Shown here: in pieces, positions 21,001 to 36,000 of the stretch | Layout: each line of letters starts with the position of its first letter | Numbering within the stretch: the stretch's first letter is position 1 | Assembly: GCA_965247305.1 (NCBI GenBank) | Contig: OZ252030.1 | Location: 3,477,262-3,541,261 of the forward strand | Reading direction: 5' to 3' | From: Bryobacterales bacterium | GTDB taxonomy: Bacteria; Acidobacteriota; Terriglobia; Bryobacterales; UBA6623 | Length of the DNA: 64,000 nucleotides | Program-made: the position numbers

Positions 21001-24000
21001 CTTTTTCAGGGGCAGGCCGGGCTGGGTGCGGTCGAGGGCTTGAATCTGTGACTTCTCGTCGAGGCAAAGAACGAGGGCATGCTCGGGCGGGTTGAGATAA
21101 AGTCCGATGATGTCGTCGAGTTTTTCGGCGAAGCGCGGGTCGTTGCTGAGTTTGAAGGTCTTGACGCGATGCGGCTTGAGGCCGTGGGCGCGCCAAATGC
21201 GACCCACGGTGGAGGCGCTGACGCCGACCGCGGCGGCCATCGTGCGGCGGCTCCAATGGGTGGCGTTGGCTGGCGTTTCGCGGGTCGTCTTGTGGATGAT
21301 CTGTTGCACTGTTGGGGAGCAGATGGCGGGCTTACGGCCGGGCCGCGGGGCGTCCTTTTCGATGCCGGCGACGCCGGATTCAAGAAAACGGCTTCGCCAG
21401 CGCGCCACCAACTGACGCGAGACCGACAGCTGCGCGGCAATCCGTTTGTTCTCAAGACCGTCGGCGGCGAGCACGATGATCCTGGCTCGCAACGCCAGAC
21501 GAACAGCGACCCGACGACCGTTCGCGTAGCGCTCCAACTGCCTACGCTGCTCCTGCGTCAATGGGACTGGCTCTGCTCTTCGCATCCGTGTGCCTTCTAC
21601 TAGTAAAGGCGACACGAAGATACTATAAGTTACATTATTTATGGCGCACTACACTAGTAAAGGCGACACGAAGATACTATAAGTTACATTATTTATGGCG
21701 CACTACACTAGGCGGGTCGAGCCGAGGTGATCGAGCGTGCGGAAGAACAGCCCGGAGTTGGCCGGCGCGGTTGTCGAGTACTCCGCGGCGAGTTTACCGA
21801 CGACGTCGTAGACGAAGGTCGTCGTCTCGGCTGATGTGAGCTTTTCCACGCGGTTGCCCGCTCCGTCGTACCGCTATTCGGCGACGGCGTTCCCGGATGT
21901 GCAGGTCACATGACCTGCGCAATAGAAACGCTGCTTGTTGTTAGCGTCGTAGGCCATGGAACCGACAATCGGGTGGCGCACCATATTGCCAGCAGCGTCG
22001 TAGGGATCGTCGGTCGTCACCATCGGGTCTGGGTCGAGATCGGCACCGGTAGGCAGTTTTATGATGCGGTTTGTAGCCGCGTCGAACTGCGTGACGGCCG
22101 TGGGCGTCGGGGACCCCATGGTGATGCCCGAGCCAGTCGCGGCTCGGTTTCCGAAAGCGTCATAGCTGTACGTGCGCTGCCAGAAGTCGTTGTTTTCACC
22201 GACTGTCTTAATTCGATTGACGGCGTCGTAGGTGTACTTCTGGGTGAAGGTTGGGTTCCCCGAAGCGGTGATCACCTGCTGCAGAATATTTCCGTTGTTG
22301 TCGTTGCTGGTGACATCGCAGTTGCCGCTGTCGGTTGCACCGTACTTGAAGGTGAGCGTGAGTAGTGTACTCGCGGTCATTGTGCACGGCTGCAAGCGGT
22401 TGTTATAGGTCGTTGTCTCTGTAAGTCCGTTGCCAAGCGTGAATTGATCAGGCGCTCCGTGGGGTTTGTAGGTGATGTTTTGGGCGAAGTCAATTTGGCC
22501 GACGGTGTTGCGCCCAGCCTTGGTGGGACGCCCGGCGCTGTCGTACTTGTACGCCACTTTGAAGCCGTCGGGGTAAGTCTGGGTTTCGAGTGTGCTGTCA
22601 AGGTTGTAGGTGTAGATGAACGGATAGGTTGTCCCAGCGGTGATCTGGCTGCTCTGCGAGGCCCTGCCTACCGCGTCGTAGCAAGGGAAGCTCGTCGTAG
22701 AAACGCTGTTGACAACGGAATCCAACCGGCCTTTGTTGAAGCACGGCGCGGAACCGCTGCCCAGCACAAATCGGGCGTGGTCCCCATTTCTTCGTTGTCC
22801 CCATTTCTTCGTATTCGTTGTCTGATGTCGTGGGGCATTCCGGGGATAACGAGACGCTCATCGCGGGGCATAACGTTGTGAGTTTACTGCTACATTCAAA
22901 TCGCCGTAAACCGATGTTATATAAAGGTTTGCTTAGTTCTACCCCTGGAAGGTGTGAAAAAATCGATTTCTCCGGTTGATCTACGCTGGTTCTAAAAGAC
23001 TTAGGTGCTCCCTAATGCGTCGATTTTGAATTATTTCACACCTTCCTGTCCCTGATCTCCCTGTCCCTGATCTCCTCAATCGCGCCGTTTCATGAACATT
23101 GTTGTCGCTGTAAGTAGCTGATTGTATAAAGGTTATGTGAGTTCCGTGCCTGTCCCCGAACTCCCCCTGTCCCTGCCCCCCCATTCGTGCGGAGATGCGG
23201 CTCACTCATTCCGAAGTAATCCGACTAGTACGACGACGGACGCAACGATGCTAATCGACAGTGCGCTCGCGATACCGACCAATCCGAAGTCGACCGGTTG
23301 TTCGCCAAGGCTACTGATGAGCTCGAAGATCAGTACAGCTACCCAGACGCTAGCTATGGCGGCGCCGATTAGTGCAAGTTTGGCGCCACTCTGGCCCGCG
23401 ATGCCAAGGGTCGATATCCCAGAACCAACTGTCAACAATAGTGGCCCAGCGAAAACCGCGCTCCATAGTACGACCACATGAACCCACGAAGCGACTGACG
23501 CAATACTGATCATGCCGGATAGCACGATAAAGCACGAAACCAGAAGCACACAGCCTACGACGAAAGGTATCGCTGCATAGGGTTCAGCAATCTTCACTAC
23601 GGCTGGTCCTCGCTGTCAAGATCTACTTGGACACTAACCGTCCTCGTCATCTGAAGGTTTATCATAAACCCGGCAGTCCCTGGCGCAGCCTGCTGAATCG
23701 GAATGTTCTGTCGTTTGCCTTCATCAACCGATACATTCCCCTCGAAGGAGGGACTGCCCGAGACAGTGCCACCTATCGAAAGTCTTGACGCGTCCTGTGG
23801 AATCGTCACTTTGAGGTCAGCCCGGATTCCACGTGATACGCCCTCAACAAACGGGTTAGCGACATCCTGTTTGATGCTGATAACCGTATTGCCTTCCTTA
23901 TCGAACCCGGCGCTGGCTGTAGGCAAAATCGGACCGTCGGCGGTAGCCTCGAAATTGCCAATTGAAGTGTGTGTTGACTGTACCATTTTATGGAAGTTAA

Positions 24001-33000: not shown

Positions 33001-36000
33001 CGCCGGAGGTAGAATTTTGGACTTGGTTTCGAACGGTGAAGTTCCCTCCACGAGTTACTTGAGAAGGGGGCGACGTGACCCCCGAGATCGTCAATTGAGG
33101 GGTACTCGGAGGTCCGCACTCGCCTGAGACTGTAAGGTCCACCACGGCGGTCGTAGATTCTGATCCGCCGCTGGCCAGTGTGACGTCGACCTGAATCGTT
33201 TCCTGAGCGGTCGAGCATATCGGGTCTGGGGCTGTATACAAGCCCGCCCCGCCTGTAATTGAGCCCAATGCGGGTATAGGCGAGATGATCGACCACACCT
33301 CCGCTGTGTGCGCTTCGGAAACGCTCACGACAAACTGGAACGTCTCACCCGCTTGCAGCGATCCTGGCGGATCATCGACTGTCACTGTCACGCCACCGCC
33401 AGCGGCTGGTGCCGTGTCAATCGTCACCTCGTCAAACTTACTGGGATCCTGCTGACTCGTTGCTCGCAGGGTCGTTGTTTCAAGCTGCGATACACTCGCC
33501 GCTCGAAAAGTTACAGGATTTGATGTGGGGCTTGGCTCAAGGCTACCCGGGCCGACGATCGACCAAGTCACCGAAGGGTCTGCCGCATTGCTCACGGTCG
33601 CCGTGAACGCCTGAGTTTGGCCCTCTGTAAGCGTGGCTCCGGCCGGGCTGATACTAACTGCGATCGGGAGCCCAGGAATGTCGACCGCGACCAGCCGTCC
33701 GCCGACGTACACATATCGCTTCGAGGCGGTTTGACCACTAGCGACCGATGCGACGACTAGAAGAAGGAAGCTAAACGCGATAAAGGCGCAGGCAGTGTAG
33801 CGAGGACGAGAATGTGAAGCGTGAATCATCTTTCTCGCTCCTAGCGACGACTTTCGCGAAACACGCGTGGCGTTACGACAAGCACAAGCGAAGTGTCGGG
33901 TTGAGCGTCATGCGCGGCACGGATCTGTTGCAACAGCCGACGTGTCTCCATGCCCGGTATTTGCACTAGATCCTCCAGCAACGCCCGGTCGAAAACACCG
34001 GTTAAAACGAAACTCTGTCCGGGCTTTACGTCCTGGTATCGGTCGGCCGTGCGCAACATGGTCGCGGGCTCGATGAATCCGTTCCTCACCGTCGAGTTTG
34101 CAAAGTCGACACATCGGACGATGGATCGAATTCTCACCCGCAGACTTCCGTCGGGCATCTGGATCGGTGAGAAGCTCAGTCGCGCGCCGAATTCTTGAAG
34201 CGGTCCTCGAGGCGCTTCGTTGTCACCCGGCAGCGGAGGTGTGCGCAGCGGCGGCACGCTAGTCGCCGCCGTCGCACCGTCGCTTCCGGGCAGGGCTGGC
34301 GTGAACAGAGGCGGCATCCCCGGAGGCGTTGTCGACTGCGACGCCGCTCCTGTCGACGACGGTGGCGATGCTGTAGGGTCACCACCAAATACGATCGGAG
34401 TCGGGGCCCTGCGAGCAATGGTCTCATCGCGTTCGATCTTCGTTCGTGGGTGCGGGTAGCGCCCCCCAACTAGATAGACCGCTTCCTCTCCGAGCCTGGT
34501 CTCAAGCCGGAGCCGGGCCAGACGATTCGCTGTTTGGGCTTGCAACTGATCACCAACGAGTGAATCACCAACCGTGTCATCTTTAAGCAAGTGGACACGG
34601 GTGCGCTCGGTACTTCGAAACGATGCCAATGCCCGCGAGCTGCCAGGAAGAATATCGCCGCGCTGCTTGCGCTCCCGTCCGATTGCATTCTGCGCATCAG
34701 TGTTGGCCTGCACCAACTGCACTTCGAAGACGACCCGATCGGCCCCACGGACGTCTTGTGATCTCAGCGGCAACGCAGCGAGCATAAGGAGGCTCGTTAG
34801 GGCAACTGCCACACGCTGCATCTTTCCAATCGCAGACAGTTGCTGCGACGACGGCGGTGATTTCCAGGGGTAATGCGACGCCGACGTACGTTTCAACTTT
34901 GGAAAAAACCAAATACTACACATCATGGTTTATCAATCGATGTTTCTACGTCGCAGCGACCGCGCAACTTTAGATTTTATGATCAAATTCGTAATTTAAC
35001 CACATGTAGACTAGTTCGTGTCAAGCAGATTAATGATAGTTGGCGATCTTTTTCACATACTCAAATATTTCGAATGGCAGTATCTATGAAAGTTACAAAA
35101 CATTCGAAAATGGATATGTTGTTAGTTACGGCCAAATACAGTTCCACAGAGTGCAATCGAGCACTAATTGACAGATCGTTGAAAGCGCGCGGTAATTCCA
35201 GCTGAAACGGGAAATGGCCGAGCCGAGTATTAGCAAGCCGTATGGCAACACAGCAACGAAATTGCCGATCGAGGTTACCGCATGAACCTCGTGGCTGCGG
35301 ACCGTCGATAGTAGTACGCATTTACTACTTGCGAACCATAAGTCACGCTCTTTCACTTCGATAGGAGCCACTAGACTCCTGTTGGGCGACTTCAAGATCG
35401 ACCGTCACGGCACTCTGCGTAGACGAACAATCAACGCTTTCCGGTTCGCCGACCTTGTCTAGCGCTGTTGAATTGAGAGAAAAATGGCCTCCATGGGATA
35501 AATCATGTGCCGTGCACTGCCGGGCAAATCTGATTCCGAAAACAACCAAGATATTGGACAAATGTGCTGTGCGTATCCAATCAGATACTCACGATTGGCA
35601 TCATTGTAGCTGGGCGAACCACTGCAACCACAGAACTCAATCTGACACTGCCATTTTGCTTCCCGCGATCGAAAGATGGAGTTGGGCTTGCGCAGCATGC
35701 TCTAATCAATCTGCCGAGAATAGGATCGCCGGTGTTGATAGAAGAGAGTGGGGTGATACCTCACTTTTCTTCCCTTCCTTCAAGATCTGGATAGCTAACA
35801 AGCCAGCTTCTGGATGGTAATCTTGTCAGCTAGCCCAGCTAGGCAAATTACTCATCCTTGGTCTATTAGTCTGTCCATGAGAGGGTTGTCTCCGGAGTTG
35901 GTCGGCATGGCCCTGCTGGCTGCAAGTGATCTTCAAGAAGATCTGTTCGCCAGATTCGTGTATTTGGTTCGAACTTTGCAACCGGGGTCTATTCTCTTGT

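What a model noticed while it worked through the whole genome (the two positions that open the first line are those of the whole stretch)
23597..34821. T6SS-free Rhs toxin module: signal-peptide Rhs with a dedicated metal-free cupredoxin-fold partner
The long Rhs toxins of this diderm bacterium have N-terminal signal peptides, and each is preceded by a small exported protein of a new family with a cupredoxin fold but no copper ligands. In this family the operon adds a short secretin-domain protein and a 1508-aa CARDB/Ig protein; no T6SS is present, suggesting a Sec-dependent Rhs export route.
Evidence so far: 9 copies of the small gene, each directly upstream of an rhs gene; in 11 of 11 loci from 9 other genomes the homologue is adjacent to or two genes from an rhs gene, and secretin-like plus CARDB genes recur in G004 and G096. 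Model pLDDT 82, Foldseek hits EfeO and plastocyanins E 5e-6; no conserved His/Cys/Met. Secretin PF00263 E 4e-5. No VgrG/Hcp in tables, PF04717 0 hits. Search 197.
(Added by a program. Inside this text positions count along the whole contig: contig position 3,477,262 is position 1 of the stretch shown here. "Call 12" and the like, gene names such as g00115 and contig names such as C1 are that model's own, and its searches are not shown. The text may have been shortened before it was handed on; [...] marks where a part breaks off. The agent that wrote the report below was given it as the finding of a first reader that could run no searches.)

Follow-up and report, generated by a model that had tools for sequence, protein, structure and literature searches.

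The report
Split Rhs toxin with clip-on adhesin
These bacteria encode large Rhs proteins, likely toxins aimed at rival bacteria, whose shell lacks one short repeat; the missing piece is carried by a separate, variable, predicted-exported protein that likely clips onto the shell and would act as its aiming module.

Summary
The gene layout is confirmed. Nine copies of a small cupredoxin-fold gene each directly precede an rhs gene with a signal-peptide-like N-terminus, and this single-contig genome has no T6SS markers.

These Rhs proteins lack one beta-hairpin repeat just before the core (20 of 20 cores in the genome). The 1508-aa Ig/CARDB protein carries that hairpin motif at its mature N-terminus. 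A motif profile built from other genomes hits only these six genes in 6.2 million residues.

Among related loci, hairpin-less Rhs have such a donor gene nearby in 16 of 23 cases, and the other 7 have one elsewhere in the genome. Rhs that keep their own hairpin have none nearby (0 of 18). One genome has the motif back inside the Rhs, and several relatives insert lectin-type domains at the same spot.

Likely mechanism: a Sec-exported Rhs toxin whose variable adhesin docks by completing the shell sheet. Binding is unmodelled and untested.

Corrections: 'no conserved His/Cys' fails family-wide; the small gene is replaceable; the secretin-like gene is lineage-restricted; some relatives have a T6SS.

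The parts
33841..34821 (-). Secretin-domain-only protein (326 aa, signal-peptide-like N-terminus, no periplasmic N domains, Pro-rich disordered insert); lineage-restricted accessory, closest to Tad CpaC
29303..33829 (-). 1508-aa 'donor' protein: signal-peptide-like N-terminus, hairpin motif, Ig/CARDB domains, then variable ~150-aa repeats; likely adhesin
   Evidence: residues 1-600 identical or nearly so among 5 copies; later 100-residue blocks 62-98% identical
33680..33721 (-). Donor hairpin motif (residues 37-50), homologous to the pre-core YD hairpin of other Rhs proteins
28834..29271 (-). Small exported cupredoxin-fold partner (about 142 aa from the ATG at 29262); no type-1 copper ligands
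23597..28837 (-). Rhs/YD-repeat protein with signal-peptide-like N-terminus, Rhs core ending in DPDG and a 190-aa variable C-terminal domain
24509..24601 (-). Hairpin-less pre-core segment of the Rhs (15 residues between the last repeat strand and the core motif, against 33 or more in Rhs that keep the hairpin); presumed docking site
23597..24169 (-). Variable C-terminal domain, presumed toxin; no Pfam match
23202..23597 (-). Hydrophobic 131-aa gene overlapping the rhs stop; presumed immunity protein
   Evidence: role inferred from position
15891..22767 (-). Orphan rhs C-terminal cassettes with following small genes (21874-22767 and 18430-19374, split by two IS630 copies at 19387-21615; 17873-18442; 16322-17818; 15891-16325)

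Best explanation
This is likely a Sec-exported Rhs polymorphic toxin built from separate parts: the Rhs shell lacks one pre-core hairpin repeat, and a separate, predicted-exported Ig/lectin-type protein carries that hairpin and likely inserts it into the shell sheet, which would attach a variable target-binding or anchoring arm to the toxin capsule. SHOWN: the missing hairpin; the motif at the donor's mature N-terminus, at its C-terminus or between domains; their near-complementary distribution; the in-cis forms; the variable donor cargo. INFERRED: (1) all chains cross the inner membrane by Sec and assemble in the periplasm; (2) the donor hairpin docks by strand complementation; (3) the core autoprotease releases the C-terminal toxin inside the shell, and the downstream gene gives immunity; (4) the small cupredoxin-fold protein is a non-redox chaperone or cap for the Rhs N-terminal end, since its type tracks the Rhs N-terminal type and another family replaces it in other loci; (5) the outer membrane is crossed by the resident type II system or, in this lineage only, by the secretin-like protein. 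Steps 4 and 5 are the weakest.
For:: 20 of 20 Rhs cores found in G000 are hairpin-less (gap 15-16); a profile seeded from other genomes hits 6 places above 18 bits in 6,194,270 ORF residues of G000, all six being the donor N-terminus (5 intact, 1 IS-broken)., tallied: donor in locus for 16 of 23 hairpin-less loci and 0 of 18 own-hairpin loci. The other 7 hairpin-less loci each have a stand-alone donor elsewhere in the genome (the G773 hit is weak). In-cis case: L117/G252 has the motif inside the Rhs between the same flanking strands, and 6 of its 7 strong hits were inspected and all lie in Rhs frames. On trees built without the hairpin columns L117 nests among hairpin-less Rhs, sister to a donor-bearing locus (100/99; SH-aLRT 97). 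The state changes at least 2-3 times on these trees. Same cargo in both states: F5/8 galactose-binding domains inserted after the hairpin in L063 and fused to the donor motif in L134; LamG inserted in L060. In one sample of 401 genomes the motif occurs in 27 of 30 small-gene genomes (7 of the 10 that gave no seed) against 26 of 371 others. 20 of those 26 were inspected and all are stand-alone proteins outside Rhs, many beside hairpin-less rhs. Within G000 the donor N-terminal half and the Rhs pre-core region (80-99%) are homogeneous, while distal donor repeats and Rhs N-termini (40-44% between types) vary.
Against: No structure, model or experiment shows binding. The spacing across the hairpin-less site (25 residues) is close to neighbouring repeat spacings (20-27), so the shell might close with one repeat fewer and need no donor. 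The Fisher values (about 1e-6) are overstated: loci are kin, the states were entered by hand, and the donor seeds came from the same loci (scored leaving out the own locus or genome). G364 has a donor although it was picked as an own-hairpin-type genome; that donor sits beside a hairpin-less rhs. Two small-gene genomes (G165, G184, both fragmented) gave no motif hit. The C-terminal domains tested have no Pfam match, so toxicity rests on architecture. Signal peptides come from a heuristic only.
Confidence: 0.62

Rival explanations
1. The donor binds the Rhs, but as a transient assembly or export factor or a surface tether on the producer cell, not as a target-binding arm. The hairpin would be a lid or folding aid that seals the toxin in until release.
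For: Some donors carry S-layer-like repeats or long N-terminal anchors (L026, L134, L225; the S-layer label is recalled, Pfam gave no hit). The donor motif is almost invariant in position at a chain end.
Against: Cargo is highly variable and often lectin- or Ig-like. G255 holds eight donor hits, interleaved with orphan toxin cassettes in the six inspected. The distal repeats diversify among copies.
Confidence: 0.2
2. No physical complementation. Donor genes arose by recombination with rhs DNA and keep a vestigial hairpin, while hairpin-less Rhs simply have one repeat fewer.
For: rhs loci are recombination-prone and IS-rich; repeat spacing allows closure.
Against: The 14-residue motif is conserved across unrelated cargo and two classes of the phylum while its flanks are not. 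It sits directly after the predicted signal cleavage site or at the C-terminus. It is absent from all 18 own-hairpin loci.
Confidence: 0.1
3. One reading: the small metal-free cupredoxin and the secretin-like protein form a dedicated export route for the Rhs.
For: Small gene adjacent to rhs in 59 of 64 loci by profile; secretin fold supported; gene order secretin-like, donor, small, rhs in G000 and G004.
Against: Full-length secretin-like matches in only G000, G004, G096 and G118 of 151 genomes. One G096 copy and the G118 copy have no rhs, donor or small-gene tag within 17-18 kb. Two G000 copies have lost the ATG. G000 has five complete secretins, including Tad and type II-like clusters.
Confidence: 0.08

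Closest known systems
Sec/T2SS-exported Rhs polymorphic toxins (Zhang et al. 2012, PMC3482391, Table 1; passages read)
   Same: Signal peptide, RHS repeats, variable C-terminal domain, downstream immunity gene, orphan cassettes.
   Different: The table lists no signature neighbour genes for this route. In the held text (first 300,000 of 357,715 characters) 'cupredoxin' and 'secretin' have 0 hits. No split hairpin or donor protein appeared in the passages seen.
Bacterial teneurin-like proteins (PMC13018210, PMC6425310; passages read)
   Same: Sec-exported YD-shell toxins, Acidobacteria included, with variable Ig/CARDB/carboxypeptidase-type adhesion domains; delivery unknown.
   Different: Their adhesion domains are fused at the N-terminus in one chain with TTR, FN-plug and NHL domains. 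Here the adhesin is a separate gene linked to a pre-core hairpin.
T6SS Rhs effectors with Eag chaperones, e.g. RhsA/EagR1 (PMC8765631; abstract and passages read)
   Same: Small dedicated gene directly upstream of rhs; cocoon with C-terminal autoprotease.
   Different: Eag is a cytoplasmic chaperone for PAAR/TMD N-termini and needs VgrG. Here there is no PAAR or VgrG in the genome, the partner has a cupredoxin fold and both chains look exported.
Donor-strand complementation in chaperone-usher pili (recalled, no call)
   Same: A terminal strand of one exported protein would complete the beta-fold of another and link an adhesin.
   Different: Here the donated element is a two-strand YD hairpin and the acceptor a toxin shell; no usher is involved; binding is not shown.
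Cupredoxin-like domains (PF13473; EfeO N-domain, plastocyanin, FtrB)
   Same: Fold (VIA Z 11.3 to EfeO); 11 of 65 members match PF13473 at E<=0.01.
   Different: No Cys, His or Met set at the type-1 positions; a stand-alone family tied to rhs.
Bdellovibrio Bd0108/Bd0109 (PMC3818213; passages read)
   Same: Small exported protein paired with a signal-peptide RHS protein; other RHS genes there lie near pilus genes.
   Different: Bd0109 is about 550 aa and regulates pili; no polymorphic C-terminal toxin.

Membership tests
Rhs polymorphic toxin | YD/RHS repeats and Rhs-associated core ending in DPxG | tested here: met
   PF05593 E 5.5e-39, TIGR03696 E 3.1e-16; DPDG at residues 1568-1571
Rhs polymorphic toxin | Variable C-terminal domains, downstream immunity gene, orphan cassettes | tested here: met
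   11 clusters among the 14 C-terminal domains the pattern caught; cassettes at 15891-22767
Rhs polymorphic toxin | Toxic activity of the C-terminal domain, neutralised by the immunity protein | not testable with these tools
   No Pfam match for three C-terminal domains and three following genes
T6SS Rhs effector | PAAR/VgrG N-terminus and T6SS genes in the genome | tested here: not met
   0 hits for PF05943, PF05638, PF05954, PF05488 in G000
Sec-exported Rhs | Cleavable N-terminal signal peptide | tested here: inconclusive
   Heuristic only: 82 of 94 against 11 of 1010 controls; no SignalP available
Bacterial teneurin-like proteins | TTR, FN-plug and NHL domains fused ahead of the YD shell | tested here: inconclusive
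   No such Pfam domain in the window Rhs; the Rhs itself was not modelled
Cupredoxin fold | Greek-key beta-sandwich like plastocyanin/EfeO | tested here: met
Type-1 (blue) copper protein | His, Cys, His, Met ligands | tested here: not met
   0 of 149 have Cys at 125, 1 has His at 80, 0 have Met at 131; the mapping of these positions uses recalled plastocyanin numbering
Metal-free cupredoxin | No bound metal | not testable with these tools
   55 of 149 keep Asp/Glu80, Glu125 and His128 together; the window copy has Asp, Val, Tyr
Secretin | Secretin beta-domain | tested here: inconclusive
   PF00263 23.4 bits against a cut-off of 27.5; Foldseek top hits all secretins, E 6.9e-8, but TM about 0.27; Atlas 0.91
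Secretin | Periplasmic N domains and an oligomeric gated pore | tested here: inconclusive
   No N domain in the model, whose residues 131-201 are disordered; oligomer not tested
Donor-strand-complemented assemblies | Physical insertion of the donor element into the acceptor sheet | not testable with these tools
   No model of the pair could be obtained; only sequence complementarity

The most novel reading that the evidence does not exclude
A widespread acidobacterial class of split Rhs toxins in which the capsule is left one hairpin short and is completed in trans by interchangeable adhesins. Targeting (donor repertoire) and killing (C-terminal cassettes) would then diversify as two independent polymorphic libraries, with no injection machine.
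Probability: 0.5. Interest if true: 0.9.

Novelty: new variant of a known kind. Interest (0 to 1): 0.8.

Why it matters
How Rhs/YD toxins without a T6SS find and reach target cells is stated as open in a 2026 paper on related proteins (PMC13018210, Discussion passage). This finding names a precise 14-residue docking element, its partner site and natural fused controls, so the question becomes directly testable. It would also be a case of inter-protein hairpin complementation in a YD shell, which ten literature searches did not turn up. It gives a role to many unannotated Ig/lectin proteins and to an unnamed cupredoxin-fold family of more than 1400 clusters.

Tried and rejected
1. No model of the Rhs-donor pair was obtained, so there is no verdict on docking either way.
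2. An apparent fusion of the small domain to an 1880-aa frame in G267 was an overlapping-frame effect; the genes are separate.
3. Profile scans of whole contig collections did not run for lack of a conserved stretch. Single-protein scans gave 17 and 2 loci, the first biased towards Pyrinomonadaceae-type sequences.
4. A word-based homologue search found only the genome's own two small proteins; the HMM search was needed.
5. A PDB sequence search with the in-cis stretch gave only off-register repeat matches. The earlier search suggests extra residues at this spot in 8h8a and SGS1, but the alignments are loose.
6. The ~270-aa replacement family has no Pfam or PDB match and is not found in G000.
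7. Weak phylum hits of the small-gene profile (L066, L069-L071) have no rhs and were treated as other cupredoxin-like or chance hits.
8. Co-evolution of the small protein with the Rhs N-terminus was not tested across genomes, because physical linkage confounds it.
9. The scan's earlier findings returned nothing.
10. The wide VIA search did not run because the machine was busy.
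Full report
OBSERVATION. The region 23597-34821 holds four minus-strand genes in one run: secretin-like, 1508-aa Ig/CARDB, small, rhs. A hydrophobic 131-aa gene and IS-broken orphan rhs cassettes follow. The small gene's stop overlaps the likely rhs start, and the rhs stop overlaps the next gene. The genome (one contig, 95% complete) has nine copies of the small gene, five of them identical, each followed by a long rhs, and one IS-cut stump. VipB, Hcp, VgrG/GPD and PAAR profiles find nothing while controls ring. Five complete secretins exist elsewhere, in Tad and type II-like clusters as read from neighbouring ORFs by eye. Named relatives are Acidobacteriota; the window's phylum is inferred from that.

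THE SMALL PROTEIN. A 15-sequence profile finds 2551 clusters at E<=1e-3 and 1425 at E<=1e-10. The model (pLDDT 78.5) matches cupredoxins: Foldseek E 1.9e-5, VIA Z 11.3, rmsd 2.2 over 90 residues to EfeO. Pfam Cupredoxin_1 catches 11 of 65 members weakly and NCBIfam none meaningfully. Type-1 ligands are absent, but over 149 representatives Asp/Glu80 is 80%, Glu125 65%, His128 62% and Cys133 78%, and 55 of 149 keep the first three together. By recalled plastocyanin numbering those three fall at the old metal site, so 'metal-free' is plausible for the window copy and open for the family. An Rhs N-terminus follows within 300 nt in 57 of 64 loci. The gene is not obligatory. In six loci (L215, L216, L220, L223, L226, L227) an unrelated ~270-aa exported family fills the slot, and in L225 and L230 no gene lies between donor and rhs. 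Within G000 the small-gene type tracks the Rhs N-terminal type, which fits an N-terminal chaperone or cap but is confounded by linkage.

EXPORT. A hydrophobicity-plus-charge heuristic scores 82 of 94 full-length homologues and 11 of 1010 interior windows (9 of the 120 listed proteins were skipped because the core pattern missed them). Four of ten module-bearing relatives have a T6SS sheath gene, so the module is independent of T6SS, not exclusive of it. The secretin-like protein models as a secretin-type beta-domain without N domains and with a disordered Pro-rich insert (pLDDT 72; Foldseek top hits all secretins, TM about 0.27). Full-length matches occur in G000, G004, G096 and G118 of 151 genomes; the other hits cover only the C-terminal part and look like CpaC. 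One G096 copy and the G118 copy have no rhs tag nearby, and two G000 copies lost the ATG. It is at most a local accessory.

THE MISSING HAIRPIN. The upstream large proteins differ completely between genomes (CARDB, Big_7, BACON, I-set, carboxypeptidase-regulatory, F5/8). They share a 14-residue motif, roughly KEYIYxGGRxxAxE, right after the predicted signal cleavage site, at the very C-terminus or, rarely, between domains. The same motif is the hairpin that other Rhs carry between the last repeat strand and the core motif (L062, L065, L135, L144, L237). The Rhs here lack it: the gap is 15-16 residues in 20 of 20 cores of G000, against 33 or more in own-hairpin forms. Of the 120 best homologues, 117 of the 119 readable are hairpin-less and 2 keep it (biased by the query; 17 were read by eye). 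A profile seeded only from other genomes hits six places in 6.19 million ORF residues of G000, all donors.

COMPLEMENTARY DISTRIBUTION. Among loci picked by the small gene and with a readable core, 16 of 23 hairpin-less loci have a donor in the fetched stretch, against 0 of 18 own-hairpin loci (16 of 21 and 0 of 16 when short flanks are dropped). Rows dropped were those without a core in reach, three duplicates, and those with no readable acceptor strand. Two donors are weak (17 and 23 bits). The seven hairpin-less loci without a local donor all have a stand-alone one elsewhere in their genome. G255 has eight hits, six inspected, interleaved with orphan cassettes. G252 (L117) has the motif inside the Rhs at the homologous place, no donor in 11.6 kb upstream, and 6 of 6 inspected hits inside Rhs frames. 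Trees without the hairpin columns (37 rows with 16 skipped; 56 rows with 3 skipped) need 2 and 3 changes and place L117 as sister to donor-bearing L228, consistent with re-fusion; the root is unknown. Two hairpin-less loci from outside the order (L134, L225) have donors. Own-hairpin Rhs often carry 150-370-residue inserts right after the hairpin, including LamG and F5/8 domains, the same cargo class as donors. In one sample of 401 genomes the motif is in 27 of 30 small-gene genomes and 26 of 371 others. Twenty of the 27 supplied seeds; of the ten that did not, seven hit, one of them in cis only. Twenty of the 26 were inspected and all are stand-alone proteins. Of five genomes picked for own-hairpin-type loci, three gave no hit, one a hairpin inside another Rhs, and one (G364) a donor beside a hairpin-less rhs.

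MECHANISM. The most economical reading is that the loop after the pre-core hairpin is a surface display site. Some lineages insert binding domains there in cis; others moved hairpin plus binding domains to a separate exported gene that docks back by completing the sheet. Toxin release by the core autoprotease and immunity follow from established Rhs biology (PMC8765631) and are not shown here. The main weakness is that nothing physical was obtained. The site's 25-residue spacing is near the 20-27 of neighbouring repeats, so a self-closed shell is possible, and kinship inflates the statistics.

COMPARISON AND NOVELTY. Signal-peptide Rhs toxins are known (PMC3482391 Table 1, passages; supplements not read), as are Sec-exported teneurin-like toxins with fused adhesion domains (PMC13018210 and PMC6425310, passages) and upstream Eag chaperones (PMC8765631, abstract and passages). 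Bd0108/Bd0109 is a looser parallel (PMC3818213, passages). Ten searches (other papers seen as listings only) found no description of a donor hairpin, a split Rhs shell or a cupredoxin partner. The library lacks most subscription journals. The pilus donor-strand analogy is recalled. Verdict: a member of the Rhs polymorphic toxins by architecture, a new variant by its split, modular build. Interest 0.8.

Noticed in passing
L215, L216, L220, L223, L226, L227 (just upstream of rhs): An unnamed ~270-aa exported family replaces the small cupredoxin gene, often after a carboxypeptidase-regulatory-like gene; no Pfam or PDB match.
   Followed up: partly
L171-L173 (G255), L176 (G773), L222 (G149): Donor genes are interleaved with orphan rhs C-terminal cassettes, suggesting a stored library of adhesin modules.
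   Followed up: partly
L058-L060, L063, L137, L139, L142: Domains of 150-370 residues (LamG, F5/8; PA14-like by eye) are inserted right after the pre-core hairpin of Rhs proteins.
   Followed up: partly
G000:C1:3664370-3664560 and 3972920-3973110: Two secretin-like copies lost the ATG and gained tandem copies of a short unit just upstream.
   Followed up: no
L107, L117, L124, L127, L216, L228: A CxxC pair recurs in the loop before the Rhs core motif in one sub-branch, possibly a disulfide at the docking site.
   Followed up: no
window 11896-14935, 19387-21615, 36964-38576, 46463-48323, 60470-62545: The window is dense in insertion sequences (IS21, IS4, tandem IS630, IS91-like with integrase); many rhs operon copies in the genome are IS-broken.
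   Followed up: no
window 36016-36846: Recombinase zinc-ribbon gene fragment upstream of the operon, repeated before the copy at C1:4576091, hinting that the operon moves with a mobile element.
   Followed up: no
window 41066-45804: TonB-dependent-like outer-membrane barrel (PF25183) facing a TPR protein; no evident link to the operon.
   Followed up: no
L135: An own-hairpin member of the module lies in a record titled Heliomicrobium, outside Acidobacteriota; transfer or mis-binning not resolved.
   Followed up: no
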